A DNA stretch of 64,000 nt from Elusimicrobiota bacterium (GCA_016722575.1 JADKIY010000001.1:768887-832886); one strand, 5' to 3'; counted from the stretch's first letter, positions 9,043-39,558 are shown. Notes: generated by a model from the sequence alone, not told the origin. A program made the numbers and translations.

Positions 9043-9971
9043 CGCCCACCATCGGCGACGGAATTAAGCGCGCGACCCAGCGATTGTCGGACCGGGGCGT
9101 TTCCAACGCCGAACGGGAGGCTTTGGAGCTTGTGGCCCGCGCCGCCGCCTTTTCCAAAGACACCCTGCCCGCCCGTCTTCGGGACCCCTTGAGCCCGGAG
9201 GCTTCCATTTTTCTTGATCAGTGGACGGTCCGCCGGGTCGCGGGCACCCCGCTGGCCCATTTGATCGGGGAATGGGATTTCCTGGATTTCACCGTCACCG
9301 TCACCCCGGACGTTCTCATCCCCCGGCCCGAGACCGAAGGTCTTTTTGACTGGGCCGTCCGCGCTAGCGGCAGTCCCAGATCGTCGGATGGGGCCGTCCG
9401 CGCTAGCGGCAGTCCCAGATCGTCGGATGGGGCCGTCCGCGCCCGGGACGCCGTTTCGGGGGCCAAAGGCCCGGCGCATTGGGTCGATTGCGGCACCGGC
9501 TCCGGGGTGTTGGCTCTGGCCGCGGCCCGGCAGTGGACCGATGCGCGGGTAACGGCCATCGATCTTTCGGCCGCGGCCCTGGCCGTGGCCCGGTGGAACG
9601 CCCGCCGATTGGGCGTGGAGAACCGAATTCAATTTCGACAGGGCGATCTCTTGGACGGGATCGACGACCAATCCGTGGACGGTCTCCTGGCGAATCTGCC
9701 CTACGTGGAAGACGGGGAATGGTCCGGCCTGGCCACCGAAGTCCGCCAGGAACCCCGGCGCGCCCTGTTGGGCGGCTCCGATGGGCTGGACGTGATTCGA
9801 CGCTTTGTTCCCCAGGCCGCCCGCGTTCTTCGTTCCGGCGGGGCGGTGTACCTGGAAGTGGGGCGAGGCCAAGCCGAGGCCGTGGCCGCGCTGTTGCGCG
9901 GCTCCTTCAGCGACGTGCGATTGGAGAAGGATTTCGCCGGCATCGACCGGTACGTGGGGGGCGTGCGATGA
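9039..9971 (+). CDS. prmC: Release-factor glutamine N5-methyltransferase PrmC/HemK
   Basis: ATG 9039 overlaps the prfA stop (ATGA). VDCGTGSGVLALAAA is the SAM-binding motif and NLPYV is the NPPY-type substrate motif. The six-frame ORF from 8727 is an antisense/overlap extension. Confidence 0.9.
   Translation: MTPTIGDGIKRATQRLSDRGVSNAEREALELVARAAAFSKDTLPARLRDPLSPEASIFLDQWTVRRVAGTPLAHLIGEWDFLDFTVTVTPDVLIPRPETEGLFDWAVRASGSPRSSDGAVRASGSPRSSDGAVRARDAVSGAKGPAHWVDCGTGSGVLALAAARQWTDARVTAIDLSAAALAVARWNARRLGVENRIQFRQGDLLDGIDDQSVDGLLANLPYVEDGEWSGLATEVRQEPRRALLGGSDGLDVIRRFVPQAARVLRSGGAVYLEVGRGQAEAVAALLRGSFSDVRLEKDFAGIDRYVGGVR
9352..9442 (+). repeat. 39-bp in-frame tandem repeat (~2.3 copies) inside prmC
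   Basis: gggccgtccgcgctagcggcagtcccagatcgtcggatg occurs twice in tandem plus a partial third copy. Encodes AVRASGSPRSSDG x2. Confidence 0.8.
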
Positions 9972-11227
9972 TGCGTTTGGACGGGTTTGTTCTTCGGGGC
10001 GGCCGCCGCTTGGCGGGCCGCGTGCGGGTGTCGGGTTCCAAGAACGCCGCCCTGCCCTGCCTTTTCGCCACGTTGTTGACCGACGATCCTTGCGAATTGA
10101 CCAACGTGCCGGACCTTCAGGACATCCGAACGGCGGTGCGTCTGTTGGAACGCTTGGGCAAGAAAGTGACTTTTGAGCGGGGCACGGTGACGGTTCGCCG
10201 GCGCGGCGCTTTGCAACACAAGGCGCCGTACGATTTGGTTCGCCGCATGCGGGCCAGCGCCGTCGTCCTGGGCCCCCTCTTGGCCCGCCTGGGACGGGCT
10301 CACGTGTCCCTGCCGGGTGGGTGCGCCATCGGCGCCCGGCCCATCAATTTTCATTTAAAGGCTTTCGAAACCCTGGGCGCCAAGGTGACCGTCCAGGAAG
10401 GCTACGTGGCCGCGGCGGGACGATTGCGGGGAAAAACCCTTCGGCTTCCTTTCGCCAGCGTGGGCGCCACCGAAAACGTCCTGATGGCCGCCGCCTTGGC
10501 CCGAGGCCGAACGGTGCTCAAAAACGCCGCCCGGGAACCCGAAATCACCGATTTGGCCGACATGTTGATCGGCATGGGCGCCCGGGTGGCGGGCGCCGGG
10601 ACCGACACCCTGGTGATCGACGGACGCGAGCGCCTGGGCGGGGTCCACCATCGCGTCATTCCGGACCGGATCGAAGCCGGCACCTTTTTGATCGCCGCCG
10701 CCATCACCCGGGGAAACCTTCGGGTGATCGACGCCCGGGCGGACCATTTGACCGCGGTCCTCGCGGCGCTCCGAAAAGCCGGCCTCGGGGTGCGCGCCGA
10801 CGGGTCGGATTTGGTGGCCCGTTGGACCCGGCCGCTCCGCCCCGTGTCCATCACGACAAAGGTCTACCCCGGTTTTCCAACGGACATGCAAGCCCAGTGG
10901 ATGGCCCTCATGGCCGTCACCCGGGGCAAAAGCGTGATCACCGAATCTATTTTTGAAAACCGGTTTCTTCACGCCCAGGAACTTCAGCGCTTGGGGGCCC
11001 GGGTGGACGTGCGCGGCTCCCGCGCCACGGTGGAAGGCGTGGCGTCCCTGTCGGGTTGCCCGCTCATGTGTTCGGATTTGCGGGCCGGCGCGGCGCTCGT
11101 GCTGGCCGGCCTGGCGGCCCGGGGGGTCACCAAAGTGCTCCGGGTTTATCACCTGGATCGGGGCTACGAAGCCCTGGAAAAAAAGCTGCGCGCCGTGGGC
11201 GCCGACATCCGGCGGGCCCCCCTGTGA
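9968..11227 (+). CDS. murA: UDP-N-acetylglucosamine 1-carboxyvinyltransferase
   Basis: [37 protein letters not shown]... is the classic MurA N-terminus. Start overlaps the prmC stop. The six-frame ORF from 9479 is an extension in the prmC region. Confidence 0.95.
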   Translation: [419 protein letters not shown]

Positions 11228-23209: not shown

Positions 23210-25795
23210 TTACGCCTGGGTCATGATCTTGAGCATCGTCGCGATGTCGTTGGCGATGGCTTCGGAAAGCTTTTGCAGGCCGATGATCAGGAAACCCGCG
23301 GCTTTGGTGACGCTCTCGGCGTTCCGGGCGATGATCCGGGTTCCTTTCATCATTCCCGCTTTCTGGTTTTCCGGCCGGTTGATCCAGGCCACCACTTCCG
23401 ACATGACCACGCGGCCCTCGGCGTCCACCAGCCCCGGCACGCGGCCGGGCGTCAGCACGTGGACCACCGCTTCTTTTTGCACGGCATTGGCGAAGACATC
23501 GTTCAAGGGGTTGGCGCCTTCGGCCGCGACGATTAAATTGGTTCCCGGTCGGACCGCTTCGGCCAGCCCCGTGAGGAAAATCCGCATGTCCTTCTGTTCC
23601 CGGGCGCTCCAACCCATGTAACCAACCAAATTGACGTGGAGGGTGGTGGCCGAATCCTGGGCGGCCCGGGCCCCCGCGGCCAGCAGAGCGCCTTCGGCCA
23701 ATTGTTCCTGACGGGCGGGTTCGTTGATCAGCCGCCGGGCGGCGGCGCGGTCGTTGGAAAGGAGCTGGACGAGGCTTTCGAAACCGCTCAGCCGGGTGGC
23801 GTCGTCCACCGACGTGTATTCCGAACGAAGGTCGTTGAAGTTTCGCGCGGTCCAATAATCGCCGCTTCCGACCGGGGTCGGAATCGTGAAATTGAAGGGT
23901 TCCGCTTTGGAACCCAAAAGCGTTTCCATGAGGGCCAATCGCGCCCAGGCGTTAAAGTCTTCCTCGCCCGTTCCGGGGGACCGGCGGCCGTTGGGCCCCT
24001 TGGGCGTTTCGACGCCCGCGGGCAGACCGAGGGTCGGCGATTTGGGGGTGGCCGGGATCCCCAGGTCCACGGGGAAGGACCGGTTCCGGGCGTCCACAAA
24101 CGTGAGGGTGACCCGTCCGTCCGTCACGCCGACCGTGTAGGTGGTCAACCCGTAGACCGCTTGAACCCGGAAAACCCGTTGGCCGATCAAGGGAACCAGC
24201 CGATTGATTTCGGCTTTGACGGCGCTGTGGTTGGGGCTTAAGAGCGCGGGCGTCGGGGATTCGCGAAGAAGGAAGGACACCACGGCCGGAACGACGTCGT
24301 ACCGCAGCCAGAAGGCGTTTCGCGGAGACAAATTCGTCGCGCCCAGAACGCCCAGGGCCTGGGGATTGTAAAACTCCAGGGCGGCCGGCAATCCGAACCG
24401 TTCGCGAACGCCCGGCCAGTCTTTGGCGGCGGCGTCGATGTAGGGAAGCAGGGAGGAGGCGATCCGGGAATCCTCCGCCAAGGTGTCGGCTTCGGCCGTT
24501 TGGCGGTTGTCCCGGGCGATGTGCCCCGCCTCGTGGCCCCAGGTGTTCAAAAGGCCCACGGCCGTGTTGTTGCGGTCCAAATAAACGACCCGCTTGGCGT
24601 CGGCGTCCGATTCGCCCTTCTTTTTTAAATCGTTGAACAATCCCAGGGCCGGCAAATTGGAGGTGATCACCACCGCGCCGACCTTGGAGGTGTCCAGTTT
24701 CCAGGTGTGGGTCACCTCCAAAAGCCAGGCCAAAATCTTGGCGTCGTCGGCCGTGTTCGCTCCCTCCAAATTAATTTTTTGAAGTTGAGCCGAGGCCTGC
24801 AGAAGCGGGTTGGACTTTGCCATCCATTGCTCGGCCCGCTTGATCGACGCCTCGCTGGGCGCCAACTGGGACATGTCCAGGCGGGCCACTTGGGCCCGTT
24901 CCAGCGTGGCCAGGGGCAGGTTCGGGGTTTCCACGTTGGCTTGGGAAAGGGCCAGGGGGACGCTCAAAAGGTTGAGGGACAGGAGGGCGGCGGTGGCCAG
25001 GCCTTTGACGAAGCCGGTGCGATCGGCCATCCATCGCGCGACGGAATCGCGTACGTTGAGAAGCGCGTGGGCCGCGACCCCGGCGGCCGCCGCCGCGGCG
25101 GTCATCCAATGGGACACGCCGCCGGTCATAAACAGGTCCAGCATCATGAGAGGGACGAAGGTAGTGGACGCGATGGCCGTGGCCCCCACGGCGCGCCCAA
25201 AGGTTCCCGGGGCGGGCTCAAACCGTTTCGTCGCCGGGTTGTAATTCAGAATGCCGCTCACGTAGTGGGCGCCGAAAAGGGCTACTCCCAACGTGGCGTC
25301 GTTCAGCAGATCGGAGCCTTCCGCGTAGCCGGTGAAGGGAAGAAGGAAGTTCACCGCCAGGAGGAGCACCGATTCCAGGGCGCCGAAAAGGGCGAAGGAA
25401 AGGTTTCGGGAATTCCCGAGGGACGGGAACCGGTCCAAAAGGGCGTTGGCCACCGGCGCCCACCAGCCGACGGCGCCGCGGGTCGGGCCGTGGGCGGGGG
25501 CCGCGGCGGCGGGTTTCGTGGCCGAGAAACCAAGGCCGGTTAGCACTTCCGTTTGAATAAACTGGGTCAATTTCGGCCAAAGGGTGTCCGGTTCTTCGTC
25601 GGGCATTTCGATAACGACGAGCTTGTCCTCAAATCCAAGCTTTTTGGCCTGGGCCTTGAGCACCGCGAGGGCCGTGGCGGCGGGACGACCGTCCGGCCGA
25701 AGGGCCTTGGTGTCGACGAAGGCGATCAGGAAGTCGGGTTTGCGGGCGCGCAGGGTGTTCTCGTCGAATTTCGTCGTCGCGGGCGGGATATACAC
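23210..25795 (-). CDS. Giant-locus ORF3: polytopic membrane protein with an M48-like HEAGH zinc-metalloprotease motif
   Basis: 861 aa from GTG 25795. TM-rich region at aa ~130-285. NNTAVGLLNTWGHEAGHIARDN maps to 24521-24556 and resembles the M48 active site. The frame is open upstream to 25964 with no start codon, so it may be fused to ORF2 by a frameshift. Confidence 0.6.
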   Translation of the reverse strand: MYIPPATTKFDENTLRARKPDFLIAFVDTKALRPDGRPAATALAVLKAQAKKLGFEDKLVVIEMPDEEPDTLWPKLTQFIQTEVLTGLGFSATKPAAAAPAHGPTRGAVGWWAPVANALLDRFPSLGNSRNLSFALFGALESVLLLAVNFLLPFTGYAEGSDLLNDATLGVALFGAHYVSGILNYNPATKRFEPAPGTFGRAVGATAIASTTFVPLMMLDLFMTGGVSHWMTAAAAAAGVAAHALLNVRDSVARWMADRTGFVKGLATAALLSLNLLSVPLALSQANVETPNLPLATLERAQVARLDMSQLAPSEASIKRAEQWMAKSNPLLQASAQLQKINLEGANTADDAKILAWLLEVTHTWKLDTSKVGAVVITSNLPALGLFNDLKKKGESDADAKRVVYLDRNNTAVGLLNTWGHEAGHIARDNRQTAEADTLAEDSRIASSLLPYIDAAAKDWPGVRERFGLPAALEFYNPQALGVLGATNLSPRNAFWLRYDVVPAVVSFLLRESPTPALLSPNHSAVKAEINRLVPLIGQRVFRVQAVYGLTTYTVGVTDGRVTLTFVDARNRSFPVDLGIPATPKSPTLGLPAGVETPKGPNGRRSPGTGEEDFNAWARLALMETLLGSKAEPFNFTIPTPVGSGDYWTARNFNDLRSEYTSVDDATRLSGFESLVQLLSNDRAAARRLINEPARQEQLAEGALLAAGARAAQDSATTLHVNLVGYMGWSAREQKDMRIFLTGLAEAVRPGTNLIVAAEGANPLNDVFANAVQKEAVVHVLTPGRVPGLVDAEGRVVMSEVVAWINRPENQKAGMMKGTRIIARNAESVTKAAGFLIIGLQKLSEAIANDIATMLKIMTQA

Positions 25796-28700
25796 TTCCG
25801 GGGGTACGGCCGATACGTTGGCTTTCAGGGCTTCGGCGCGGTAATGCCGCGTCCGCCCAAAACCGTTGGCTCCCAGGCCGGCGGAGAAGAACCGAATCGT
25901 CTTCAGGGCTTCGGGGTCCGGGGCCCAGCAGGACTTTGTTTGCGTCCTCCGGGAAGTCCAGTTTCATCCCGCTGCGCATGGTCAGGGTCGTGACGGTCCC
26001 TTCGGGGGACGTCACTTCCAACCGGGGCAGAATGGCGTTGATGGAGGATTGGAACTGATCCCGCTCGGCGGCCGGGACCAGGGAACTGTTGAATTTGAAG
26101 AGCGCCTTGCGCGCCAGAATTTCGGCGATGGCGCTTCGGCTTTCGTTGTTGGAGCAAATGAACATGCCCGTGACGTGATCGTCCTCGGTCAGCCGCCCGC
26201 CGCGGCGCAATTTTTCGACGCTCGCCCGGAGTTTCGCTCCCGCCCGGGCCAGGACCGCTTTTCCTTCCGCGTCGATGTATTTGGGGGCCGCCGGACCGGC
26301 GGTGGGCGCGTGTCCGGCGGTCAAGGCCGTCCAACCGAAGCGGGCGGCGGCCCGGTTGTGGACGGCGTGGAGGGCCACGCTAGCCAGCGCGCCCAGGGGG
26401 GCCAGGAACAGCCCGCCGAAAGGGTCCATGAAGGCCAGGAGCAAAGGCGCGTGAATGGCCATGCCCCGCAGGGCCAAGTTCCACCGGGTTTGCCGGGTGG
26501 CGGGGGCGGGTTCCAATTCCCATCGGCCCAAACGGTCAACCCCCGACTCCGCGGGCTTATAGCGATAGACCGACCGGTGGGAAAAGCCGAAGGCCACGTT
26601 AACGAGGGCGAAGAGGCCGGTGGCCGCGAAGAAGGAATGATCGATGGAGACGCCGAAGAAGGACCCCAGGGCGCTCATCAAGCCCACGGAGGCGTAGAAG
26701 AAGACGCCCGTAGCGAGGGATTCCACCAAGGGGGCCTTTTCGTTGACAATGCGGTTGAGGTCGGCCGGATTATTCTTGTCGAGGTTGAAGACCCAGGCGA
26801 TCAGGGGCACCAGCCCCGGAATCGTCGCGGCAAGCGGTTTCTGTTCAAAATCAGCGGCTCTGACCAAATTGATGGCGACGCCATGGTAGCCGCCCCAATC
26901 CGCCGGCGGCGTCGATAGGAGAATTTTGTGGACGGTTGGCCGGCTACGCACAAATCGCCGAATGATCTCCGGGGTGGCCAGCGGTGTGGGATCGGTTGCA
27001 CCTGTCACAGCGGCGATCAACTTAAGGGCCTTGCGCTGGACGTCGGGGTGGTTCCTTAGGTATTCAAGGTATTCAGAGACAGCTTGTTCCCCGGGCGATA
27101 CGGGGGCGACGGAATGAGCGAAAGTTGTCACAAGCTGAAGGGGCGAGTCCTCGGGCCGCTGAGCGATGCGAGCCATAATCACTTTTAAATCATCGTTGTT
27201 CATCGGGCGGCCGGTGATTTCCTGGAAACGAGCCCGCCAGGCCTGAATATCTTGAGGCGTGAAAACTCTTACGTTGTTGGTAACAGGCTTCGGTTCCGTC
27301 GCGCGCAGGCGCCCCTCCAATTCGGTGCGCAGGGGCTCCGAGGGGAGGCTCTTGTCGATCGCCGGTCCCATGAGGTCTCTGATGTCGTCGGCGCTCAGCG
27401 TGGCTTTGATTTCAGAATGTTTGTATCGCTCTCTTTCGTCCGGGACGATTTCGCCGTTGGGCAATGCGACCTCCCGGCCTTCAAAGGCCCCATACCGGTA
27501 GCCGAGGCGTCCATGTGAGCGATCGCTAAAACGTTTGTCGCCCCCTGTCCCGAGCTCATGAAACTCAAGCCCCGGGACCTCTCCTATTCCCGCATCGGCC
27601 AGTCTCTTTTCCAGCAACATCCCCAGGAAGATGGCCGAAATCTCGTAAGGTTCAACCGACTTCCCTTTCAATTCGTTCAAACGGAATTTCTCATAGATTT
27701 GAGCTGCAATGGATTGATGCAGGTAGATGGTGATGCCTTTGGCGGCTTGAGTCTCATAATCCTTCAGAAACTCCAGCATTTCAAGGCCGTCGGCGACCTT
27801 GTGCGGTATGTTAAGGTCCCAAAGTACCGGCAGTATTGCGTCCAACACACGATCGGCGTCATCCGGCGTCAGGCTGATATGGAATTTCCAGCCCTGTTTG
27901 TCGCGCGGCAGTTCTCCCATTCGAACATCTGCATATCGCCATCCCCGCATCGGAACATATTTATCCTGCGGGGTTTTGAGGCGGATGGGGTCAGTCCCGT
28001 CCTCGCCCTTCCCGGGGCCCTTTCGGGCGGGCGCGTGCCCGGCGGTCAAGGCCGTCCAGCCGAAGCGGGCCGCGGCCCGGTTGTGGACGGCGTGGAGGGC
28101 CACGCTGGCCAGCGCGCCCAGGGGGGCCAGGAACAGCCCGCCGAAGGGATCAACGAAGGCCAGGAGCAAAGGCGCGTGAATGGCCATGCCCCGCAGGGCC
28201 AAGTTCCACCGGGTTTGCCGGGTGGCGGGGGCGGGTTCCAATTCCCATCGGCCCAAACGGTCAACCCCCGGCTCGGCGGGCTTGTAGCGGTAGAAGGAGC
28301 GGTGGGAAAAGCCGAAGGCCACGTTAACGAGGGCGAAGAGGCCGGTGGCCGCGAAGAAGGAATGATCGATGGAGACGCCGAAGAAGGACCCCAGGGCGCT
28401 CAAAATCCCGACGCCGGCGTAGAAGGCGAGGCCGGTGGCGACGGATTCGACCAGGGGGGCCTTCTCGTTGACAATGCGGTTGAGGTCGGCCGGATTGTTC
28501 CTGTCGAGGCCATAGACTCTGGCGATGAGGGGCACCAGCCCCGGAATCGTTGCGGCCGGCGGTGTCGCGGAACTTTCATTTAAGAAGGCATCCAATTGAC
28601 GTTTAACGTTTTTGTTTAACTGCTGCCAGTAGGAAAGACTTTGTTCCCACTCGTTGTAAACCTTGTCGTTGGCGAGGACGTCGGCCACGGCGTCCCCCGT

Positions 28701-28805
28701 GGCTTCAATGTATTTTTGAACGGAAACAAGGAAATCGCGACCGGCTTCGGATTGAATGGCGGAAAGGATTTCCCGATCAACGGTGCGGTCGTCGATCATT
28801 CCCAA
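25629..28805 (-). CDS. Giant-locus ORF2: membrane protein with two near-identical copies of a ~170-aa His-rich four-TM module flanking a ~420-aa soluble region; CX5R(S) motif near the C-terminus
   Basis: 1058 aa from TTG 28805 or ATG 28799. Modules at aa ~85-257 and ~660-832 are ~95% identical. CSNNESRS (C-x5-R-S) maps to ~26150. The last ~60 aa are Arg/Pro-rich and look like an out-of-frame tail. Confidence 0.6.
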   Translation of the reverse strand: MGMIDDRTVDREILSAIQSEAGRDFLVSVQKYIEATGDAVADVLANDKVYNEWEQSLSYWQQLNKNVKRQLDAFLNESSATPPAATIPGLVPLIARVYGLDRNNPADLNRIVNEKAPLVESVATGLAFYAGVGILSALGSFFGVSIDHSFFAATGLFALVNVAFGFSHRSFYRYKPAEPGVDRLGRWELEPAPATRQTRWNLALRGMAIHAPLLLAFVDPFGGLFLAPLGALASVALHAVHNRAAARFGWTALTAGHAPARKGPGKGEDGTDPIRLKTPQDKYVPMRGWRYADVRMGELPRDKQGWKFHISLTPDDADRVLDAILPVLWDLNIPHKVADGLEMLEFLKDYETQAAKGITIYLHQSIAAQIYEKFRLNELKGKSVEPYEISAIFLGMLLEKRLADAGIGEVPGLEFHELGTGGDKRFSDRSHGRLGYRYGAFEGREVALPNGEIVPDERERYKHSEIKATLSADDIRDLMGPAIDKSLPSEPLRTELEGRLRATEPKPVTNNVRVFTPQDIQAWRARFQEITGRPMNNDDLKVIMARIAQRPEDSPLQLVTTFAHSVAPVSPGEQAVSEYLEYLRNHPDVQRKALKLIAAVTGATDPTPLATPEIIRRFVRSRPTVHKILLSTPPADWGGYHGVAINLVRAADFEQKPLAATIPGLVPLIAWVFNLDKNNPADLNRIVNEKAPLVESLATGVFFYASVGLMSALGSFFGVSIDHSFFAATGLFALVNVAFGFSHRSVYRYKPAESGVDRLGRWELEPAPATRQTRWNLALRGMAIHAPLLLAFMDPFGGLFLAPLGALASVALHAVHNRAAARFGWTALTAGHAPTAGPAAPKYIDAEGKAVLARAGAKLRASVEKLRRGGRLTEDDHVTGMFICSNNESRSAIAEILARKALFKFNSSLVPAAERDQFQSSINAILPRLEVTSPEGTVTTLTMRSGMKLDFPEDANKVLLGPGPRSPEDDSVLLRRPGSQRFWADAALPRRSPESQRIGRTPGSVYPARDDEIRREHPARPQTRLPDRLRRHQGPSAGRSSRRHGPRGAQGPGQKAWI
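26309..26828. repeat. ~520-bp direct repeat, copy 2 (encodes a four-TM His-rich module)
   Basis: Near-identical to 28034-28553; the six-frame side ORFs 26321-26539 and 28046-28264 translate almost identically. Copies are separated by 1725 bp. Confidence 0.8.
28034..28553. repeat. ~520-bp direct repeat, copy 1 (encodes a four-TM His-rich module)
   Basis: See 26309-26828. Confidence 0.8.
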
Positions 28806-31800
28806 GTTGCGAGGGGCGTTCTTTCAGGCCGGGGCCCTCCCAGTGGCGCGCAATATCAAACAAGGTTTTAACGGTTTGCCGGGCCAGGCCGGGATCCATC
28901 CGGCCATGGGCTTTGATCTCGTGGAGCGTTTGCCCCTCGACAAATTCTTCGACGTACCATTGGATCTGCTCTTTGCCGTCGGGCGTTTCAATGAAATCGG
29001 CAAGGCCGAAGCGGGGCGTTCCGTGGCCTCCGATGGATTTCAGGGCATCAAGCTCTCCACGTGCGGGTCTTGAAGGCACAGGTTTTCTTTGGGAATTACG
29101 GACATCTTTTCCTTCCGCGACATAGGCGATGTCGAATTGGTCGGTCAAGTCGGTGGACGAAAGGGGAACCTCCAGGATCCGGCGAATCAGCATGGCGGCC
29201 GTCCCCTTGTCGACTTTCGTCAGAATTTCGCCGGCGGTGGTGGATAGGTCCGCCAGGCGCCGAGCCGTATCGGCCGGTTTTTCTCCGGGTTGCGTGGCGT
29301 AACGTCCGGCGATGGCGAACCGTCTAAAAGCACCGGCGGAGGACGAGGCCGGCCCTCCCGCCGTCATCGCCCGCCAGCCGAAATGGGAGGCCAGTTCGTT
29401 GTGGACGATGTGCAGGACGACGGAGGTGGCGGCGCCCAGGATCGTCACGAGGGGGCCTAGAAGGGGGAAGAGGTTTGTCCAGAGCAGCGGGGAGTGAATG
29501 GCCATTCCGCGCACGGCCAAGCTGAGGCGGGTGCCCCAGGAGGCAAATTTCGGTGTGCCGTCGGGGTTCGACTCGACTTCCCATTGGCCGTCCCGGTAGG
29601 TGTACACCCGGGCGTGAAGGGCGCCGAAGGCGAGGTTCGCCAGGGCGAAGAGCGAGTATTGGTTGAAAATCGTCGGATTCAGGGAAACCGGGACTCCGAG
29701 GAAACCGGAGACGATGACGTCCAGGTTGGACATCAGCACCATGGCCCCGAAATAGAAAAGACCGAAAAGGGCGGATTCGACGAAGGGGGCTTTTTCCGTC
29801 ACGATCTTGTTCAGGTCTTCCGGGCTGTTGGGGTTCAGCCGGTAGAGGCGGGCGATCAGCGGGACGAGGCCGGGGATGGTCGCGGGCGGGCCGCGATCCC
29901 GGTGGACGTTGGGGGCCGCGCCGGTTTTTAGAATGGGGATTTCGCCCCGGCCGAACCGGACGGCTTGATTGTAGAGGGTCAAGGATTGGTAGGCCAACGA
30001 AAGCAGTTTGGTCGGATTGGTTTTGACCCCGAACATGGGGAAATGCGAATTCGCGTTGTGAACGGCGGCGTATTGGAACGGCCAATAAAGGTCCAAGAAG
30101 GCCTTTTCCCGGGTGTCAACGGCGTAAATATCCGAAAGTTCGGGTTGGGACAAGGACACGTGGTTCGACCGTCCCAGGAGAACGTCGACCTTGAACGGGG
30201 TCGATTCACGCCCCCGTTCCCTGGTGGCGAAATATTCAATGACGGATTTGACGAACAGCGCGGATTTCCCGGACCCGTAAGTGTCCACCACGACAAAGGA
30301 CCGAGTCATCGGCAAGCCGCTGGAGCGGAATTGGCGATAAATTTGATTCGCGTAGTCGGCGAAAAGCGCGTCGCCTTCGATGAGAGCCGCTGTTTTTTGC
30401 TTGAATTTTTCCTCGATCCCCTCCCGAACGGCCGCCGATTTAATGCCCAATTGATCGAAGGGGAATAGACCTTCGGCGACGATTTCCCTAAAACTCTCGT
30501 CCATGATGTTCTTGATGGATTTGATGATTTGCGACAATTCTTTGTCGTCGTTGCGGCGATTGGGGCCCACCGGCGTGAATATGCCCGGATGGTAAACCAC
30601 GGCGGCGGCCGACGTTTGGTCGTTCAGTTGGTCCGTGTAGCGACGGAATTCGTTAATGGACAAGGCGTCGCGGGCCAGGAAGATCGGCACCTGCCCCGTT
30701 TCCTGAAGGCGCGCCACGACGTACGGCGCGAAGGCGACATGACTGTCGACGGCTTCCTGGTCCCGGGTGACGACGTCCGGGGCCAGCAATTGCCGCAATT
30801 CTTCCCGGGCGTGCAGGAAGGAGTCCCGGTTGACCTGGTTCGACCCGCCCATGAGCATCAGCCAGCCGGAGAGAATTTGATTGATTTCGTTGTCGGTGAA
30901 GACCCGGGGGCGTCCTTCGGCGTCCTTGGGAAACTGGTCCGCGTCCAAGGCCCAAGGCAAAGCCGCCAAGTCTTTCAACTGGAAAAGGCGCTCCTTTCCA
31001 AAAAACCGCTGGTGGTTGGCGAACAAACTCTGGGCCACGGGATGGGGGGTGAGCACAATGATCTTGGTGGATTGGAAAAAGCTTTCAATGCTCCCGGCCT
31101 TCCACCAATTCCGCATTTCGGGTTGGCGAATCAAGGACGCGTCGTGGATGGGGATGTTCCCGGGGGCCCATTGTTCGCCCGGCGTTCCCCGGCCCCGCAC
31201 TTGAATGAGTTCCGTGCCCTCAAAGGCGCGGCCCAGACGTTTGACGACGTTGCGGATGGCGATGTCTTGTAGGTGGCGGGCCGGCGTGTCGCCCTGCTTG
31301 GTGTAGTCCCCGCCGCTGGCCACGTTGGACGGAGCGGTGTCGTAGACGTCGCGCGCCATTTTAACCAGGCGGTCCAGTTCGTCGGGATGGGACTTGAAAT
31401 ATTGATAGTAGCCTTCTTCGTAAAATTCGTAGGCCCTTGATTCGTCCACGATTTGGTCGTTAATGACGTGCTTGATGGACCAGCCGCTGGGGCCGAACCA
31501 TTCGTCCAGCCGCGCCCGAATCGCCGGGGCGTTGTAGCCGAAATATCCGGGGCGAAAGAAGTCCTCCTTGGCGTATTCTTGTAAGAAATCCGCCAAGGAC
31601 ATTTTGACCAGGCGCTTGGCGTTGCTGGGGGGGCCTTGGTCCCCGTTGGCCGCGGTGGCGGCCGTCCAGCCGAACCGGGCGGCCAATTGGTTGTGGACGA
31701 CATGGAAAGCGACGCTGGTCAGAGCCCCCAGGGGGGCCAGGAAGAGGCCGCCGAGGGGGTCCATGAAGGCCAACAAGAGGGGGGTGTGAATGGCCGCGCC

Positions 31801-34800
31801 CCGGAGAGCCAACGCCCAACGATCGCGGAGGGACGCGGGGGCCGGTTCGGCCTCCCAGCGGCCCGTTCGGGTGACGCCCGGGAGGGGCGGCTTAAAGCGA
31901 TAAACCGACCGGTGGGAAAAGCCGAAGGCCAGGTTGACCAGGGCGAAGAGGCCCGTGGCGGCAAAGAAGGCGTGGTCGATGTGAAAGCCCACCGCGGAAC
32001 CCAGGGCGCTCAGGAGTCCCACGGCGGCGTAGAAGAAGACCCCCGTAACGACGGTTTCGACGAGGGGGGCTTTTTCGTTGATAATGCGGTTCAAATCCGC
32101 CGGGTTGGCGGGATTGAGTCCGTAAAGCCGGCCAATCAGGGGAACCAACCCCGAAATCGTCGCCGCCGGAGGCCCCCGGGGCGCCCCGGTGGACGTGGGG
32201 GCCAAGGTCCCGTTGGCGGACTGTTCGTCCAAGAGGACGACGTCGTTGCCAACGATGGATAGAGAGAATTGGTTGCGGGAAATGCCGCTGGTCGGGCCGA
32301 CGCCCAGGTCCTCCCGGCCGAATTGAAGGGTTGCGCCGGTCCGTCGATGGCCGTTCGGGAGAAGCAGAGACAATCCCCCTTCGGGGGTCGACTCCAGCAC
32401 TAGGTGGACGCCATTGACGACGAGGGGCACGGGCAGATGTTTTCGGGGGATGTTGACGGCCCCCGCGTTTTGGGACGGGCCGCCCAGGAGTGCCGTTGCC
32501 CGGACGTTCCTCCAGGCGTCAACGAGGGCGGTCAGATACTCGGCGGAGAAGGCTTCGATTCGCCCCGGGGTTTGATTGCGTTGGAGGGAAGAGACGGTCT
32601 GCTCGAGGGCATACACCTCATCGGACAACGGTTCGTTGGCCAATGGCCGGCCGAGCGCCGCCAAGTGGTCGTTCAAACGAGTGTCCAAGTGAAGCCGGAC
32701 GGTCCGCATTTGGGCCAGGTCGTCTCCCAGCTCCAAGTTCCCGGAATCTCCCCGGCGCAGGGTCCCGGCGGCCGACACACGCTGCCCCGCTTCGTCCCGA
32801 ATATCCGAAAGGGTGTAGCGGGCCGATCTCCCGCCCTCCGAGGCTTCGATGTCCACGGCCACGGCAAAGGCGGCGGCGTTTTGGATGTCGCTTAGGACGA
32901 CCGCCCCGTCTTGGGGGACGACGCGAATTTTGTCGCCTTTAATGTAAACGTCCAGGGGGATCCGAAGGGCGCGGCCCTGGGCCAAGATTCCCAAATCCCC
33001 CCGGACCGAGGCCAGAAGGGTCGATTCCAATCGTTCCCGGCCGGAATTTCCCTCTTCAGCGGGGCTCACGTCCACCGTGGTGTTGTTGGGTGAAAAGTTT
33101 TCCACCGTGGCTTCGCTGCCCGACCAGGCCAGGGCGGCGTGTTTGCGGGAAACTTCCACGCCGCTCAACCGGAGCGTGCGTCCCTCGGCGGCGGTTTGGC
33201 GGCCCAGAGTCAAGGATTCCCCGGGTTGAAGGACTTCCCGGCCTTCGGGGCCGGTGGCGATCAATCGGTTTCCCTCGAGCGAGAGGGAAACGCGGTTTCC
33301 GCTCAACACCAGGACCGAGGGGAAAGTGCCCAGCCGGCGGGGCCCCGACGTTGGCGTGAGAATCGTGTTCCCCGTGATGGCGGGGACGACCGGCGCGACC
33401 GGGGTCTCGACGACGGGTTCCGCCGGCCGGGTGATCCGCAGGGCGTTGTTCAGGAAGAAGTCGGCCGTTCCCTGCCGTTCGTTGGTGACGCCGAAATCGA
33501 AGTAGGCTTCCGGGATGACGTTCCAGGTTTTTTTAACGGTCTCATTGTTGAATTCCGCCGCGCCGTCCCCCGGCTGAAAACGGGCGCGTCCCGCGGAGGC
33601 GGGGGCCAAAATCACGCCGGGGGTGAGGCGGGCGAGCTGTTCCCAGGCGGCCTTCCAAACGGGACTCAAATCGTAGCCCGAGGCGTTGTAGTCGCCGAAA
33701 ACGAGAACGCCCTGATCGGTCATCACCAGCACCACGTTGGCGATCATGGCCCCGGTGGCTTCGTCGTAGGCCATGGCGAAGGCGGAGTTGGATTCCAGGG
33801 CGTGGGCCACGGGCATTTCCTGGTGGCCGCCCCCGAAGGGATTGAAGCACCCCGGAACCCGGTGCCCGGCGGCCACTTCGTCCAGGAGGCTTTTCTGGAT
33901 TTTCACCGAGACCCGGGCCCGGGCGTCGTCTTTTAGTTTCTGCGTGGCCAAGAGGGACCGGAGGGCGATGAGGATTTCGTTGAAGTGGAGTTGAATTTGG
34001 AGGAACCGTTCCTCGGGGTTTTCCACGCCGTCCCGGGAGAGGCGGTCGATGGCCTCGTCCCGTTGGCCGAGGATCCGCTCGTTCACGAATTGTTCGGCGG
34101 CGGCGTAGGTGTCCAGGGCGTCGGCCGTTTGCGCGGCTTCGGCCGCCTTGACCAGTCCCAGGGATCGGGCGATCTGGACCAACTGTTCGGTTTGCCTCTG
34201 AACCTGGACAATCCGTTCCTGGGCCGACAGCGGGGCCACGTCCTGGGCCGGGACGACGATTCCCCGGTCCCACAACGCGGGGGAATAGCCCGCCGCCAGA
34301 AGCGCGGCCTTGGCCTCGCCGTTGCCGGGGATTTGGGCGAGGTTGTGCGCCGCGGCGGCGGCGTTCGCCGCCTCGGCCGTCCCACCGTTGCGGAGCGTCT
34401 CCAGCCAGGTCGTGACGGCCGACTTCAGCCGGTCCGCCAACCCCGCCGTTTCCCCGGTCGGGGCGCGCTCCGGCCGCAACGACGTGGTCAAGGACGTGGC
34501 CACGATCAGTTGCGTCAATTGCCGCTGGTCCAGCTTCTCCAAAATGGGAGCGTTTTCCTCGCCGAAAACCTCCAGAACCGCCTGCCGCTCGGCGGCGGCG
34601 ACGACCGCCTCGACCGTCCTAGCCAGATTTTTCGGTCGGAGCGACCCGCCGGCGAAAGCGGCCGCCAAGGCGCGCATGGCTTCCAGGGAAGGTTCGAGTT
34701 TTTCCCGGGAATTGGCTTCCGCGTGAAGTTTAAGAAGCAGACTCCAACGGTAAAAGGTTTCGATCAAACGGTAATAGTCGATGGCCGGGTCGGTGCGTCG

Positions 34801-37800
34801 AAGGAATTCGAAAAACGGATCCCTTTCGCTCCAATAGGGAAGGCCCGCCAGGGCCTCGTCCAACAGTCCCACGCTGGGAACGCGGTTTTTCTCCGCCAGG
34901 AACATCAATAAATCCAGGGAAGCCGCGGGGCCGATGTGGCGGGAAAGGGCCCCGTCCACGTGATTGATGAGATGACCCTCTTCCGGCACGCTCCATCGCT
35001 CGGCGATTCCCCGAAGCCGCTCGGCCAGGGCCGCCATGCGCTCGGGGCGGGCCGTTGAGCTTCCGGTGTTCCGTGCCGTCGTGGCCAGGGCCCGGGCGGC
35101 AAAACCCATGAAGGATCCCTCGCTGGAGCGGATTTTTCTCGGATCGACTCGGACGCCGAGGGTTCCCAGCAAAGCGATTTCCTCCGGGGACAGGGCGCCA
35201 AGGTGTTTCAGGTCGTCGCTGGGAATGTTCAGGGCCCGCAAGGTTTTGGTCCGCTCGAAGGCCTGGACGAAGGCCGGGGCCTGGGCCAGGGGGCCTTTGA
35301 GCGGGCGATCCCGGGTGTCCTCCCAGGGGCTGAACGCCGATTCCAGGGCTCTTTCCACTTCGCTCGACAAATTGAAGCGCGCGCTCTGACCGGCCACGGC
35401 CAAATCCGCCAACAAGGGTTTTTGAAGATCCGGGTAGACCAACCCGAGCAGCAACAGGCCCACCGCGGCCTTTTCCTCCGTTTGGTATCGGGAGGGTTTA
35501 TCCCCTTCAAAGAGCAGTTCGGAAAGACCGGTAAAAAATTCCAGAGGCGCCGTTTCACTTTCGCGGCCCACGGGGGATCGGGCCAGCAATTCCAGGAAGT
35601 GGACCTTGGTGAGGCCGAAAATCATGCCCTCGTTTTCCCGTACAAATTGCGATTTGAGAACCCGCTCGATGGCCGCCGCGCTTTCCCCGGGGTCGGGGGA
35701 GGACAGCAGTCGGTTGCCGAGGGTGTTTTGAATCGTTTGTGATTTTGTCTGATCGAAAACCTCCCCCAGGAGGAAGGAGATTTTCCAGAGAGTCTGGGCG
35801 TCCGGTCCCTCGGTCAACAATTTGGGGGAGTCCGCCACGCGCTGGAAATAGAGTTGACGGAATTCCCGGTGGAGGCGTTGTAGGTCGGCGGGGGCGGACA
35901 GAAGAGCCTGGGTGGCGGCGCCGAAATCGGCCCCCTCTTTAACCAGAACGTGTCCCGCGAGGGCGATCATGGCCCGCTCGGACCGGTCGTAGGCGTCCAT
36001 GCGGTCGAAAAATTCACCGAGTCGAACCAGCGCCTCCGGATTGGATATCGCGTGGTGGACGATCCTCTCGGCCATGACCTCCCCGGGGACGGGCACGTCT
36101 TGGGTGGAAGTTCCCGCGCCTTGGCGGGCCATGTTCAGAAGCCGGTTCAAGGCCAGGGCCAGTTCGGGCTTTTCGTTCAGCCGTTGGTCGGGGGCCAGAA
36201 GGCGATCGAGTCCGGCGAGGGCCGTGGGCGAGGTGAATTTTCCGTACCTTCGGAGATTGGACAGGCCGGCCAGGTGGTCTTCCGTTGATCCCGTCAAAAA
36301 GGCGCCACCGCCGCGGCGTTGGGCCCAGTTGACCCCCGCGTGGCCCAAAACGCCTACCGCAAAGCCCCCGACGACGGGACCGAGAACGGAAGACGAGACC
36401 CCCGCCAGTTCTTGCAAACCTTGAAGGGGCGCGGCCCAGAAATGGGATGTTCCGAGGGAAAGAAGCGTGTTTCCCAATTCCCGAACGAGGAGGGGAAGGT
36501 TTTGAATGATTTCGGTTGGGCCGAAGGCGGCAAAGGAGGGGACAAAGGCGCCTGTCAAAAAGACCGTGACGGCCAAGGACGCGACTCCGAAAGCCGTGAA
36601 CAGGGAAAAGATGCCAAGTCGATCGAGGGGGGTGGCTTCGCGTTGTTGAAGAGCTCCGTCTTTCCCGTAGTAGTAGACCTGTTTGTGCGTTGCCAACGTG
36701 ATTTTGGCCGCGACGACCAAGGCGGCGGTCAGGGACCAAGCGGGAGAACCCGCCAGGAGAAGAATGGGGTAAACGTACAGGAGAAACCGGGCGTTCTCGC
36801 CGAAGGGGGCGGACCATAAAACCGTGCGGGCGGGATCGGTGCGCATCGATCCGGCGTAGTTCCCGGAGAAAAGCGGCCGACGCGCCAAGTCGCTCAAAGC
36901 GGAGCGGGCGCGGACCACGACCGATTCGGTCAGAGCGCCGGGGAGGGCCGCCGCACGGGCGAATAAGCCCGACATTCGGGAGGCCAAACCGCCGACCAAA
37001 GCGCCGAAGGCGGCCACGACCGATCCCGTTCTCCGAACCATGTCCACGGCGTGGCCGTTGCCCAGATCGACGTGGCGGTCGGCGGCCCCGTGGACGTTGT
37101 CGCAGGGCTCCAGGGCCTCGGCGGCCGATACGGATACCGCGCGGACGCCGTTTTGCAGGACTTCCTGGGCGCCGTGAATAAACCGGGGGGTTTCGCCCGT
37201 CGCGTCGGCCAGGGCGATGGGGTGGGAAAGATAAATGCGGTCGCCGGCGACCAATTTTTCCAGGGGAACGGGGTCGTGGGCCAGGATGTCCAGGTAATCG
37301 CTCTCGCCGGGGACGTCCGTGATTTTAGGCGTGACCACGACGTAGGAAATTTGTTTTTGCCGGAGAAGGCCGGTCAATCCCTCGGTGTGGAAGCCGCCGG
37401 CCACGAGCACGCCGGTGGTGGTGCCTTTTTCGGCCATTTTAGCCAGGAGGTTGGCCACCAGGGCGTCGTTTCGACGGACGGCGTAGGAGCAGAAATCCTC
37501 AAAGGGCTTGAGCGTTTCAACCGTCAGGGACGGGAGCCGGGCCACCGTCGGATCCAGGGCCGCCAGGCGGTCCCGAAGGGCCAGAATCTCGGGCCGGCGC
37601 TTTTCGTAGGCCACCCAGTCGGGCATGGCCATTTCGTGCCGGAGCATTTTTTCCAACAGGGCCAGGTCCCGGGCGATGTTCATTAAGGCGGTTTCGGCGG
37701 GGGTTTTGGCCAGGGAATTTTGGGCGGCGATTTCCAACTGGTCCAGTTCGGCCACGAGCTCGTTGCGGCTGATCTTCTCCGCCAGCAGGACGTAGGTGAT

Positions 37801-39099: not shown

Positions 39100-39213
39100 G
39101 GATGAGCTGCGGCGCGGGGCTCTCTCCCCTCGGCGCGGCTTAATAGAAGAATAGGGGAAGAAGGGCGAAAAAGCCCTTAAGGGATGGTAAATTTATTGTA
39201 ACGGGTTTTTGGG

Positions 39214-39558
39214 TTAAACGCCGAAGGATTCGCCGCAGGAGCAGGTGGCGGTGGCGTTGGGGTTCTTGAAGAGAAATCGGCGGGAAAACATCTTGTCTTC
39301 GTAGTCCAGGGTGGTGCCGGCCAGGTAAAGCAGACTTTTTTTGTCCACATAAACCGTGACGCCGTGGGCGTCCACCCGGTGGTCGGTTTGGGGGGCGGGG
39401 CCCACCAGGGGTTCCAGGGAGTAACTGAACCCCGAGCAGCCGCCCGCCGTGACTTTCACCCGCAGGGCCTCGGCGCCTTGGCCTTTTTCGGCCAAAAGCT
39501 TTTTGGCGCGCTGGGCGGCGCGTTCGGTTACGTCAAAGAGGGCTTGGGTTTCGATCAC
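39214..39558 (-). CDS. HesB/IscA-family Fe-S cluster insertion protein
   Basis: ...VTAGGCSGFSY...C-terminal TCSCGESFGV (Cys-x-Cys motif). GTG start. Confidence 0.85.
   Translation of the reverse strand: MIETQALFDVTERAAQRAKKLLAEKGQGAEALRVKVTAGGCSGFSYSLEPLVGPAPQTDHRVDAHGVTVYVDKKSLLYLAGTTLDYEDKMFSRRFLFKNPNATATCSCGESFGV

What the first reader, a model, noticed from the sequence alone, without database searches (positions are those of the whole stretch)
26309..32165. Four copies of a ~170-aa His-rich four-helix membrane module with FxxxH and HxxxN motifs, possibly CPBP/CAAX-protease-like
The module shape is ATIPGLVPLIA..YGL..NNPADLNRI.NEKAPLVE, then two TM helices, IDH[SA]FFAATGLFALVN.AFGFSHRS.YR.KP, then ...RW.LALRG.AIH.PLL, then ...LAPLGAL.SVA.H.VHN..AARFGW. 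It occurs twice in ORF1 (~31645-32165, ~29350-29910; ~55-60% identical to each other) and twice in ORF2 (28034-28553, 26309-26828; ~95% identical, so ~520-bp DNA repeats). The conserved F-x-x-x-H and H-x-x-x-N spacing on adjacent helices matches motifs 2 and 3 of the CPBP (Rce1/Abi) intramembrane metalloprotease family, although the EExxxR motif 1 is not evident. Four protease-like or immunity-like membrane modules iterated inside one mega-protein is highly unusual.
Basis: inference. Interest (0 to 1): 0.75.

Follow-up and report, generated by a model that had tools for sequence, protein, structure and literature searches.

The report
Repeated protease-like membrane modules in giant protein
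A rare, unannotated four-helix membrane domain that keeps the catalytic residues of CAAX-type (CPBP) intramembrane proteases is repeated four times in a giant multi-enzyme protein of an Elusimicrobiota bacterium, where it staples cytoplasmic enzyme domains to the membrane and may cut the giant into pieces.

Summary
Four ~180-aa, four-helix membrane modules lie on the minus strand at 31630-32175, 29335-29895, 28020-28565 and 26295-26840.

A profile of them finds only 18 protein clusters among 1.84 billion. Those that carry a source organism name are Elusimicrobiota or Endomicrobiales MAGs, and most are 3.9-7.8 kaa giants with 2-4 modules each.

Across 23 modules (24-90% identity) nine residues are invariant: AP-x-x-E, F-x-x-x-H, W, H-x-P and H-x-x-x-N.

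The CPBP reading is partly supported:
- No Pfam hit to PF02517, and profile-profile comparison is not significant.
- The second Glu and the Arg of EExxxR are missing.
- Motifs 2 and 3, one Glu and the helix order do match.
- Degenerate modules in related giants partly bridge the gap to CPBP.

Charge distribution predicts N-in/C-in, so flanking cargo (FHA, kinase-like, lyase-like; elsewhere PP2C, AceK, malate synthase, isocitrate lyase) stays cytoplasmic.

The window's three ORFs are one gene in a close relative. Here it is broken by a ~128-nt deletion and a 2-nt gap.

Best reading: a new remote CPBP/APH-1-superfamily family that anchors, and possibly self-processes, a membrane polyprotein. Catalysis is inferred, not shown.

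The parts
31630..32175 (-). Module M1 (ORF1 aa 2309-2490)
   Evidence: Module HMM 175 bits. Alignment A1. Carries APLVE, FGFSH, IHTP and HVVHN.
29335..29895 (-). Module M2 (ORF1 aa 3069-3255), the most divergent copy
   Evidence: Module HMM 168 bits. 50-51% aa identity to the other copies. Carries APFVE, FGALH, IHSP and HIVHN.
28020..28565 (-). Module M3 (ORF2 aa 81-262)
   Evidence: Module HMM 181 bits. This is the sequence modelled by AlphaFold2 (pLDDT 84.9).
26295..26840 (-). Module M4 (ORF2 aa 656-837), a recent duplicate of M3
   Evidence: 90.1% aa and 90.7% nt identity to M3, with flanks at chance. Relatives L003 and L004 have a single module in place of M3-cargo-M4.
28777..39099 (-). 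ORF1 (3440 aa). It holds an N-terminal hydrophobic segment, a ~600-aa head domain shared by all the giants, about 1000 aa of unknown function, two FHA stretches, M1, a 580-aa unknown domain, M2 and a truncated kinase-like domain.
25629..28805 (-). ORF2 (1058 aa; identical to MBL0349436.1 from the ATG at 28799). It holds M3, a RamC_N/LanL-lyase-like domain, M4 and a CX5R segment, then an out-of-frame Arg-rich tail.
23210..25795 (-). ORF3 (861 aa). It is the continuation of the same gene in relatives. Its frame is already open 68 codons upstream of its listed start.
   Evidence: 88% identical to the single ORF of L003, with dN/dS 0.115.
28812..28834 (-). Lesion 1: a net ~128-nt deletion relative to L003. 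It removes the kinase-like catalytic-loop region and shifts the frame between ORF1 and ORF2.
   Evidence: Nucleotide and protein alignments. P0004 and P0005 are also continuous here.
25926..25927 (-). Lesion 2: a 2-nt gap relative to L003 that shifts the frame between ORF2 and ORF3.
   Evidence: L003 reads ...VLPEAPDPEALKTIRFFSAGLG... in one frame.
27714..27941 (-). RamC_N / class III-IV lanthionine-synthetase lyase-like domain (ORF2 aa 289-364). It lies inside the cargo found only between M3 and M4.
   Evidence: Pfam PF25816 at 2.6e-11. NCBIfam LanL and LanKC N-terminal part at 1e-11 and 1e-10.
33070..33210 (-). FHA domain (ORF1 aa 1964-2010). A second FHA stretch lies just upstream of M1.
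   Evidence: Pfam PF00498.
25016..25393 (-). Possible degenerate module (ORF3 aa ~135-260): LES, FGAH, a hairpin-like NYNPATKRFEP, and HALLN.
   Evidence: Module HMM E 0.05 in the six-frame search of the window. Collinear alignment. Weak.
36295..36822 (-). Possible degenerate first module (ORF1 aa ~760-935): APFGE, ..ATH-KQVYYY, and HAGVN. It sits at the position where giant P0006 has a strong module.
   Evidence: Not significant on its own. Rests on positional and motif arguments only.

Best explanation
**What it is.** The module is a previously undescribed four-transmembrane-helix domain family. It is most likely a remote offshoot of the CPBP/Rce1-APH-1 superfamily of intramembrane glutamic proteases and their pseudo-protease relatives.

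**Anatomy (M3 numbering).**
- A conserved junction motif, PPA-[AG]-[TA]-[IM]-P.
- Two short amphipathic helices.
- TM1, opening with the invariant A36-P37-x-x-E40.
- TM2, ending in N81-x-x-F84-G-x-x-H88.
- A basic cytoplasmic beta-hairpin, VYR...G-x-W107, specific to this family.
- TM3, with the invariant H130-x-P.
- TM4, with the invariant H158-x-x-[YH]-N162.
- A conserved exit motif, G-[WL]-x-A-[AL]-T.

**Topology.** The module enters and leaves the membrane on the cytoplasmic side. It can therefore be placed between any two cytoplasmic domains. There it pins the polypeptide to the membrane, with E40, H88, H158 and N162 in the cytoplasmic leaflet next to both junctions.

**Context.** In Elusimicrobiota giants a conserved ~600-aa head is followed by variable cytoplasmic cargo separated by 2-4 such modules. 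The cargo includes FHA, kinase-like, phospho-lyase-like, PP2C, AceK plus malate synthase plus isocitrate lyase, radical-SAM plus GNAT, and Ser/Thr kinase domains.

**Proposed mechanism (inferred).** Each module is an active Rce1-type glutamic endopeptidase. It tethers the giant to the membrane and cleaves it in cis, or cleaves neighbouring copies, at or near the conserved junctions. This would turn a membrane polyprotein into membrane-anchored or released enzyme units.

**Evolution.** Modules also act as conserved joints at which cargo cassettes are gained or lost. In this window a 393-aa lyase-like cargo sits between two near-identical modules, where relatives have one module and no cargo.

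**Shown:** the repeat, its rarity and taxonomic range, the invariant residues, the predicted topology, the cargo types, the single-ORF state in relatives, and purifying selection.

**Inferred:** homology to CPBP (about 0.65), catalytic activity (about 0.45), and self-processing (about 0.25).
For: **Rarity and range**
- 18 hits among 1.84 billion representatives.
- The hits that carry a source organism name are Elusimicrobiota or Endomicrobiales MAGs; five clusters have no name.
- The giants carry 2-4 strong modules each.

**Conservation**
- A36, P37, E40, F84, H88, W107, H130, H158 and N162 are invariant in 23 modules that reach down to 24% identity (per-column counts).

**Match to CPBP**
- PF02517 proteins share AP-x-x-EE...FRG, F-x-x-x-H and H-x-x-x-N in the same helix order.
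- The CPBP motif definitions are in PMC6588880 and PMC11980579.

**Fold**
- The AF2 model has pLDDT 84.9 and pTM 0.80.

**Bridge sequences**
- Degenerate modules in P0017, P0016 and P0007 match the module profile at hhalign probability 93.8% (E 1.7e-7).
- The same profile aligns to the CPBP profile with all three motifs in register at probability 12% (E 2.4e-3).
- A CPBP HMM hits P0017 aa 632-690 at 13-17 bits.

**Topology**
- Mean K+R is 4.7 in the N flank and 3.7 in loop 2-3, against 0.0 in loops 1-2 and 3-4.

**Cargo**
- All cargo domains identified are cytoplasmic enzyme types.

**One gene**
- L004 has four modules in one 3,585-codon open frame.
- The single ORF of L003 spans the homologues of ORF1, ORF2 and ORF3.

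**Selection**
- dN/dS is 0.12-0.33.
Against: - No sequence method reaches significance for CPBP. Pfam shows no PF02517, PrsW, YhfC, APH-1 or TMEM147 hit for any of 23 modules at E<=10.
- PDB hmmsearch finds nothing.
- hhalign of modules against CPBP gives a probability of 2.6%. The motif-register alignment is only the second-best, at 1.4%.
- PF02517 on the best bridge sequence reaches only E 5.7.
- Foldseek against PDB finds no match (best E 0.44).
- The second Glu and the Arg of EExxxR are absent.
- The top structural hit, APH-1, is a non-catalytic scaffold.
- I could not superpose coordinates to check that the conserved residues coincide in space.
- No experimental or proteomic evidence for cleavage exists.
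- In P0006, AceK, malate synthase and isocitrate lyase follow each other with no module between them. Module-flank cleavage alone would therefore not separate all the enzymes.
- The junction motif is essentially confined to module borders.
- The window's own copy carries two frame-breaking lesions.
Confidence: 0.45

Rival explanations
1. Pseudo-protease anchor or scaffold. The module belongs to the CPBP/APH-1 fold class but does not cleave anything. Like APH-1 in gamma-secretase or SpdC with SagB, it only anchors the giant in the membrane. It would organise the cargo domains, or the modules with each other, through its polar intramembrane residues.
For: The best structural match is the non-catalytic APH-1B, and SpdC and TMEM147 also match. 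The strict EExxxR motif is missing. An N-in/C-in four-helix unit is an ideal neutral tether. Cargo is not always separated by modules, as in P0006.
Against: All four residues equivalent to the Rce1 catalytic set are invariant in 23 diverged modules, including paralogues within one protein. From my own knowledge, the known pseudo-proteases of this superfamily have lost the Glu. The conserved junction motifs on both sides of the module have no obvious role in a pure anchor.
Confidence: 0.3
2. A convergent membrane domain unrelated to CPBP. One Glu and three His (E40, H88, H130, H158) would form an intramembrane metal site for a different chemistry, such as a lipid or other hydrolase, or metal sensing or transport. 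The motif resemblance to CPBP would then be coincidence.
For: All sequence-based tests for CPBP fail. Foldseek is negative. The invariant H130-x-P and W107 hairpin have no counterpart in the PF02517 alignment.
Confidence: 0.15
3. The modules are mainly recombination joints. Under this view their conservation reflects repeated gene conversion and cassette shuffling between giant genes, not a biochemical function of their own.
For: M3 and M4 are about 96% identical in their core DNA, with sharp borders. Relatives have one module where the window has module-cargo-module. Module number differs between close relatives.
Against: Modules at different positions are only 50% identical, yet they keep the same nine invariant residues. 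dN/dS is 0.16-0.33. Conversion alone does not explain invariant polar residues inside membrane helices across distant lineages.
Confidence: 0.07
4. Assembly or annotation artefact: a collapsed or duplicated repeat, or spurious ORFs in high-GC DNA.
For: The window's gene is broken by two frame-shifting lesions. The MAG is a metagenome assembly.
Against: The copies are diverged and in frame. They are found in independent assemblies from several sources and are under purifying selection.
Confidence: 0.02

Closest known systems
CPBP / Rce1-like intramembrane glutamic endopeptidases (Pfam PF02517; MmRce1, PDB 4CAD)
   Different: - No significant HMM or profile-profile match.
- E-[ST]-x-x-F-G replaces EE-x-x-F-R-G.
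- There is an extra invariant His-x-Pro on TM3.
- A 20-30-residue basic beta-hairpin with an invariant Trp follows motif 2.
- The module is only four helices, against 7-8 in Rce1.
- It is never stand-alone in the giants. It is iterated 2-4 times inside one polypeptide, between soluble domains.
APH-1 (gamma-secretase subunit) and TMEM147
   Different: These are eukaryotic seven-helix scaffolds without the Glu. There is no Pfam PF06105 match. They are subunits of complexes, not repeated modules.
SpdC/LyrA (S. aureus CPBP pseudo-protease, PDB 6u0o)
   Different: SpdC is a stand-alone eight-helix protein. From my own knowledge it has lost the catalytic residues, whereas here they are invariant.
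Giant membrane proteins of Omnitrophota and Elusimicrobia (West-Roberts et al. 2023 preprint, 'Archaeovorins')
   Same: Both are very long bacterial ORFs with many transmembrane helices and fused metabolic enzyme domains. Proteolytic processing into smaller pieces has been suggested for those giants too.
   Different: Those are larger than 10-30 kaa, carry SecA-DEAD domains, and have C39 or S8 peptidases as the candidate processors. Here the giants are 3.9-7.8 kaa, no SecA domain was detected, and a defined four-helix CPBP-like repeat is the only protease-like element. That preprint holds no occurrence of 'CAAX' or 'polyprotein'.
Self-processing multi-effector proteins (MARTX toxins) and viral membrane polyproteins (functional analogy only)
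   Same: A long precursor carries several enzymatic cargo domains with embedded processing elements. From my own knowledge, flavivirus-type polyproteins also alternate membrane segments and soluble enzymes.
   Different: There is no sequence or fold relationship. No cysteine protease domain was detected. Cleavage is not shown here.

Membership tests
CPBP / Rce1-like (Pfam PF02517) | Significant match to the family HMM | tested here: not met
   There is no PF02517 hit for the four window modules or for any of the 23 aligned modules at E<=10. A positive control, a consensus CPBP sequence, scored 1.6e-29. The best related segment, the P0017 degenerate module, reaches E 5.7 at 7.8 bits against a cut-off of 22.4.
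CPBP / Rce1-like (Pfam PF02517) | Motif 1: EExxxR on a transmembrane helix | tested here: not met
   The modules have A-P-x-x-E-[ST]-x-x-F-G. The first Glu is invariant (23/23). The second Glu is Ser or Thr, and the Arg is absent. PF02517 proteins have AP-x-x-E-E-x-x-F-R-G.
CPBP / Rce1-like (Pfam PF02517) | Motif 2: FxxxH at the end of the following helix | tested here: met
   F84 and H88 are invariant in 23/23 modules, at the cytoplasmic end of TM2.
CPBP / Rce1-like (Pfam PF02517) | Motif 3: HxxxN/D on the last core helix | tested here: met
H158 and N162 are invariant in 23/23. HxxxN is also kept in the degenerate copies.
CPBP / Rce1-like (Pfam PF02517) | Profile-profile similarity to the family | tested here: not met
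   hhalign of A2 against 28 PF02517 proteins gives a probability of 2.6%. The motif-register alignment is only at 1.4%. Through the degenerate-module profile the figures are 93.8% to the modules but only 12.4% to CPBP.
CPBP/APH-1 superfamily (fold level) | Fold similarity to solved members (MmRce1, APH-1, SpdC, TMEM147) | tested here: inconclusive
CPBP/APH-1 superfamily (fold level) | Pfam models of the other member families (PrsW, YhfC, Aph-1, TMEM147/DUF2053) | tested here: not met
   None of these appears for any of the 23 modules at E<=10.
CPBP / Rce1-like (Pfam PF02517) | Endopeptidase activity dependent on the Glu, His, His and Asn residues | not testable with these tools
   This needs expression and mutagenesis.
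Omnitrophota-type giant proteins ('Archaeovorins') | Length above 10-30 kaa with a SecA-DEAD helicase domain and many transmembrane helices | tested here: not met
   The giants here are 3.9-7.8 kaa. Pfam finds no SecA domain in ORF1-3, P0004, P0006, P0011, P0016 or P0017.

The most novel reading that the evidence does not exclude
Elusimicrobiota encode true bacterial membrane polyproteins. A single 4-8 kaa precursor is threaded into the membrane by iterated four-helix intramembrane glutamic proteases. These cut the chain at their own conserved junctions and so release, or individually anchor, ordinary cytoplasmic enzymes. The cargo includes signalling domains and even a whole glyoxylate-shunt set (AceK, malate synthase, isocitrate lyase). 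New cargo would be acquired as module-flanked cassettes by recombination within the modules.
Probability: 0.2. Interest if true: 0.85.

Novelty: new variant of a known kind. Interest (0 to 1): 0.68.

Why it matters
If the modules are active, this would be the first case of an intramembrane protease domain iterated inside its own substrate. It would also be a cellular counterpart of viral polyprotein processing. That would explain how bacteria can make use of giant genes that fuse unrelated enzymes.

Even if the modules are inactive, the work defines a new, very rare membrane domain family: 18 clusters in 1.84 billion. It extends the CPBP/APH-1 superfamily to a minimal four-helix form. It also provides a marker for a lineage-specific class of giant proteins in Elusimicrobiota.

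The module-cargo-module insertion seen in this window gives a concrete model for how such giants grow.

Tried and rejected
**Searches that found nothing**
- The word-indexed protein search with one module and with the 23-module alignment returned nothing, although ORF2 itself is in the collection. A search with the whole of ORF1 timed out.
- An exact look-up of ORF2's encoding contig found nothing on record.
- PDB sequence searches with the module profile, with ORF1 and with the head-domain profile gave only noise.
- NCBIfam found nothing for ORF1 or ORF3.
- The genome-collection scan could not use the diverse alignment. With the four window modules it found only one other MAG.

**Tests of the CPBP link that fell short**
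- hhalign against a single consensus CPBP sequence, and global-mode hhalign, were uninformative.
- Foldseek-PDB found nothing. The AFDB library was not available.

**Ideas rejected or left open**
- *Junction motif as a general cleavage site.* I looked for PAATI-like junction motifs away from modules as possible trans-cleavage sites. They are essentially confined to module borders, so this idea has no support.
- *LMW phosphotyrosine phosphatase after M4.* I suspected this domain from a CX5R string.
- *Homopolymer sequencing errors.* I first thought both ORF breaks were of this kind. Comparison with L003 shows one is a ~128-nt deletion, so that idea is rejected for junction 1.
- *Antisense ORFs.* Those overlapping the modules on the plus strand have no homologues and are shadows in 62% GC DNA.

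Full report
**1. What is in the window**

The region lies in three co-directional minus-strand ORFs: ORF1 at 28777-39099 (3440 aa), ORF2 at 25629-28805 (1058 aa) and ORF3 at 23210-25795 (861 aa). They are embedded in ordinary bacterial chromosome. Upstream are def, fmt, an M48 peptidase, RlmN and a PASTA protein. Downstream are RmuC, UPF0047, VanZ, RadC and a tRNA-Leu. GC content is even, at 0.59-0.67.

ORF2 from its ATG is identical to MBL0349436.1, a hypothetical protein of an Elusimicrobia MAG on an 851-kb contig.

**2.

Four ~180-aa modules are present at 31630-32175 (M1), 29335-29895 (M2), 28020-28565 (M3) and 26295-26840 (M4).

| Pair | aa identity | Note |
|---|---|---|
| M3 / M4 | 90.1% | 90.7% nt over 546 nt |
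| M1 / M3 | 73.1% | |
| M1 / M2 | 50.0% | |

The M3/M4 repeat ends exactly at the module borders. A module HMM scores 168-183 bits on each copy. Nothing else in a six-frame translation of the window scores, apart from a borderline degenerate copy in ORF3 (E 0.05). ORF1 aa ~760-935 shows only motif-level resemblance.

**3. Distribution**

A profile of the four copies, run against 1.84 billion cluster representatives, found 18 proteins. One of them, P0018, is a spurious repeat hit. The hits that carry a source organism name come from Elusimicrobiota or Endomicrobiales MAGs; five clusters carry no name. Seven are giants of 3878-7806 aa. Local iterative HMM searches show 2-4 strong modules per giant, plus degenerate ones.

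A genome-collection scan found one further MAG. A metagenome scan found two contigs. The family is therefore very rare, and the named sources point to one phylum.

**4. Conserved anatomy**

In an alignment of 23 modules, reaching down to 24% identity, nine residues are invariant: A36, P37, E40, F84, H88, W107, H130, H158 and N162. N81 and G85 are nearly so.

- The borders are also conserved: P-P-A-[AG]-[TA]-[IM]-P-G at entry and G-[WL]-x-A-[AL]-T at exit.
- AlphaFold2 with this alignment gives pLDDT 84.9 and pTM 0.80.
- The model has two short N-terminal helices, four long helices, and a beta-hairpin between helices 2 and 3.
- Lys and Arg are concentrated in the N flank (4.7 per module) and in loop 2-3 (3.7). 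They are absent from loops 1-2 and 3-4.

By the positive-inside rule the module is N-in/C-in. E40, H88 and H158/N162 then sit near the cytoplasmic face. This last step is inference from positions along the helices. I had no coordinates.

**5. Is it CPBP?**

*Tests that failed:*
- No PF02517 or related Pfam model matches any of the 23 modules at E<=10. A control consensus sequence scored 1.6e-29.
- PDB hmmsearch found nothing.
- hhalign against an alignment of 28 bona fide PF02517 proteins gave a probability of 2.6%. An alignment that puts all three motifs in register is only a sub-optimal solution, at 1.4%.
- Foldseek-PDB found nothing.
- The strict EExxxR motif is not there.

*Tests that gave support:*
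- The PF02517 alignment reads AP-l-x-E-E-l-l-F-R-G, F-a-l-a-H and H-a-x-x-N. The modules read AP-x-V-E-S-g-l-F-G, F-G-x-x-H and H-x-x-Y-N, on the equivalent helices.
- Degenerate modules in P0017, P0016 and P0007 have a classical-looking motif 2 (s-S-f-i-F-A-l-l-H).
  - A profile of them matches the module profile at 93.8% (E 1.7e-7).
  - The same profile aligns to CPBP with all motifs in register at 12% (E 2.4e-3).
  - A CPBP HMM scores 13-17 bits on P0017.
  - PF02517 is the only Pfam family listed for that segment, though at E 5.7.

*Verdict:* this is not a member of PF02517. It is probably (about 0.65) a remote member of the CPBP/APH-1 superfamily. It has family-specific additions: H130-x-P and the W107 hairpin.

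**6. Context: giant multi-enzyme proteins**

All the giants share a ~600-aa N-terminal head with ORF1, at 33-42% identity. Its invariant residues include Q-D-x-H, E-G and A-G-G-x-H. It has no Pfam or PDB match.

Between the modules lie cytoplasmic-type domains:

| Protein | Cargo detected |
|---|---|
| Window ORF1-2 | two FHA stretches before M1; a kinase-like domain after M2; a RamC_N / LanL-lyase-like domain between M3 and M4 |
| P0004 | PP2C |
| P0006 | AceK, malate synthase, isocitrate lyase, aldo-keto reductase |
| P0011 | radical SAM, GNAT, HATPase_c |
| P0016 | protein kinase |

This fits the N-in/C-in prediction. Each module pins the chain to the membrane without moving the cargo out of the cytoplasm.

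**7. One gene, broken here**

Metagenome contig L004 has a frame with no stop codon over all 10,756 nt (3,585 codons, running off both ends) and four strong modules.

Contig L003 has a single ORF of at least 1,736 codons. It is collinear with the C-terminus of ORF1 (77%), with ORF2 (89%) and with ORF3 (88%).

Relative to L003 the window has two lesions:
- A net ~128-nt deletion at about 28812-28834. It removes the kinase-like catalytic-loop region and shifts the frame.
- A 2-nt gap at 25926/25927.

This explains the Arg-rich out-of-frame tail of ORF2. It also explains why the ORF3 frame is open 68 codons upstream of its listed start.

Whether the lesions are real, giving a split or decaying gene, or are assembly errors cannot be decided here. 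dN/dS against the relatives is 0.12-0.33, so the pieces evolved as coding sequence.

**8. How the giants grow**

Both L003 and L004 have one module where the window has M3, then 393 aa of lyase-like cargo, then M4. The single module has M3's upstream flank and M4's downstream flank.

Together with the near-identity of M3 and M4, this indicates a recent gain of a cargo cassette with duplication of the module. Alternatively the relatives lost it by recombination between modules. Close relatives also differ in module number upstream of M1. Modules thus behave as conserved joints for cassette shuffling.

**9. Mechanism**

I favour a membrane-embedded, Rce1-type glutamic endopeptidase that tethers the giant and processes it at or near its own junctions. 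The reasons:
- All four residues equivalent to the Rce1 catalytic set are invariant. From my own knowledge, the known inactive relatives have lost the Glu.
- The active-site side coincides with the side where both conserved junction motifs and the hairpin lie.
- Enzymes such as isocitrate lyase and malate synthase normally work as separate proteins.

The weaknesses are stated under evidence against. Catalysis and cleavage are wholly inferred. The top structural hit is a scaffold. Some cargo is not separated by modules.

My probabilities are: CPBP-superfamily homology about 0.65, active protease about 0.45, self-processing polyprotein about 0.2-0.25, and pure anchor or scaffold about 0.3.

**10. 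Novelty**

Giant genes with many transmembrane helices and fused metabolic enzymes have been reported for Omnitrophota, and noted for Elusimicrobia. Their suggested processing is by C39 or S8 peptidases. I found no description of this module or of iterated CPBP-like domains.

The finding is best filed as a new variant of a known kind. It is a new minimal four-helix family related to CPBP/APH-1, in an unprecedented iterated arrangement.

Noticed in passing
window 23210-39099 (junctions at ~28812-28834 and 25926-25927); L003 nt 2-5209; L004 nt 2-10756: ORF1, ORF2 and ORF3 correspond to one continuous ORF in a close metagenomic relative. The window copy is interrupted by a ~128-nt deletion, which removes a kinase-like catalytic loop, and by a 2-nt gap. 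ORF2's last ~90 residues are out-of-frame Arg-rich sequence.
   Followed up: yes
window 26841-28019 (between M4 and M3): The 393-aa segment between M3 and M4 contains a RamC_N / LanL-type lyase-like domain. It is absent from relatives L003 and L004, which have a single module there. This looks like a recent cassette insertion with module duplication, or a recombinational loss in the relatives.
   Followed up: partly
P0006 (4875 aa, JGI metagenome) aa 994-2892: A homologous giant fuses AceK, malate synthase and isocitrate lyase, the whole glyoxylate-shunt set, in one stretch between two modules. An aldo-keto reductase follows.
   Followed up: partly
window 37168-38859 (ORF1 aa 81-644): A ~600-aa N-terminal head domain is shared by all the giants (33-42% identity). 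Its invariant residues include Q-D-x-H, E-G and A-G-G-[FY]-H. It has no Pfam or PDB match. From memory the pattern resembles the Tiki/TraB/ChaN-type GxxH motifs, but this was not tested.
   Followed up: partly
window 38939-39052: A perfect-to-98% tandem duplication of 57 nt lies at the 5' end of ORF1. It encodes two copies of a basic 19-aa unit (LRPLRGAPGTVGAPKERRL) ahead of the N-terminal hydrophobic segment. The homologous giants lack it.
   Followed up: no
window 38860-38920 (ORF1 aa ~60-80) and the N-termini of P0004-P0016: All the giants start with a signal-peptide-like hydrophobic segment. A conserved, strongly basic A-E-x-N-F-W-x-x-R-R follows it. This is atypical for an exported protein, so the sidedness of the head domain is unclear.
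   Followed up: no
window ~25990-26290 (ORF2 aa ~840-940): A CX5R(S) string (CSNNESRS) follows M4, and SAG...D-rich sequence continues in the ORF3 frame.
   Followed up: yes
window 29896-31629 (ORF1 aa 2491-3068): The 580-aa domain between M1 and M2 has no family match. It is 81-88% conserved in related MAG fragments and contains a Walker-A-like GSGKS string.
   Followed up: no
window 39140-39215: The upstream minus-strand gene ends in ...CSCGESFGV, which from memory is an IscA/HesB-like motif. A GC-rich hairpin plus T-run follows it, just before the giant gene. The giant probably has its own promoter.
   Followed up: no
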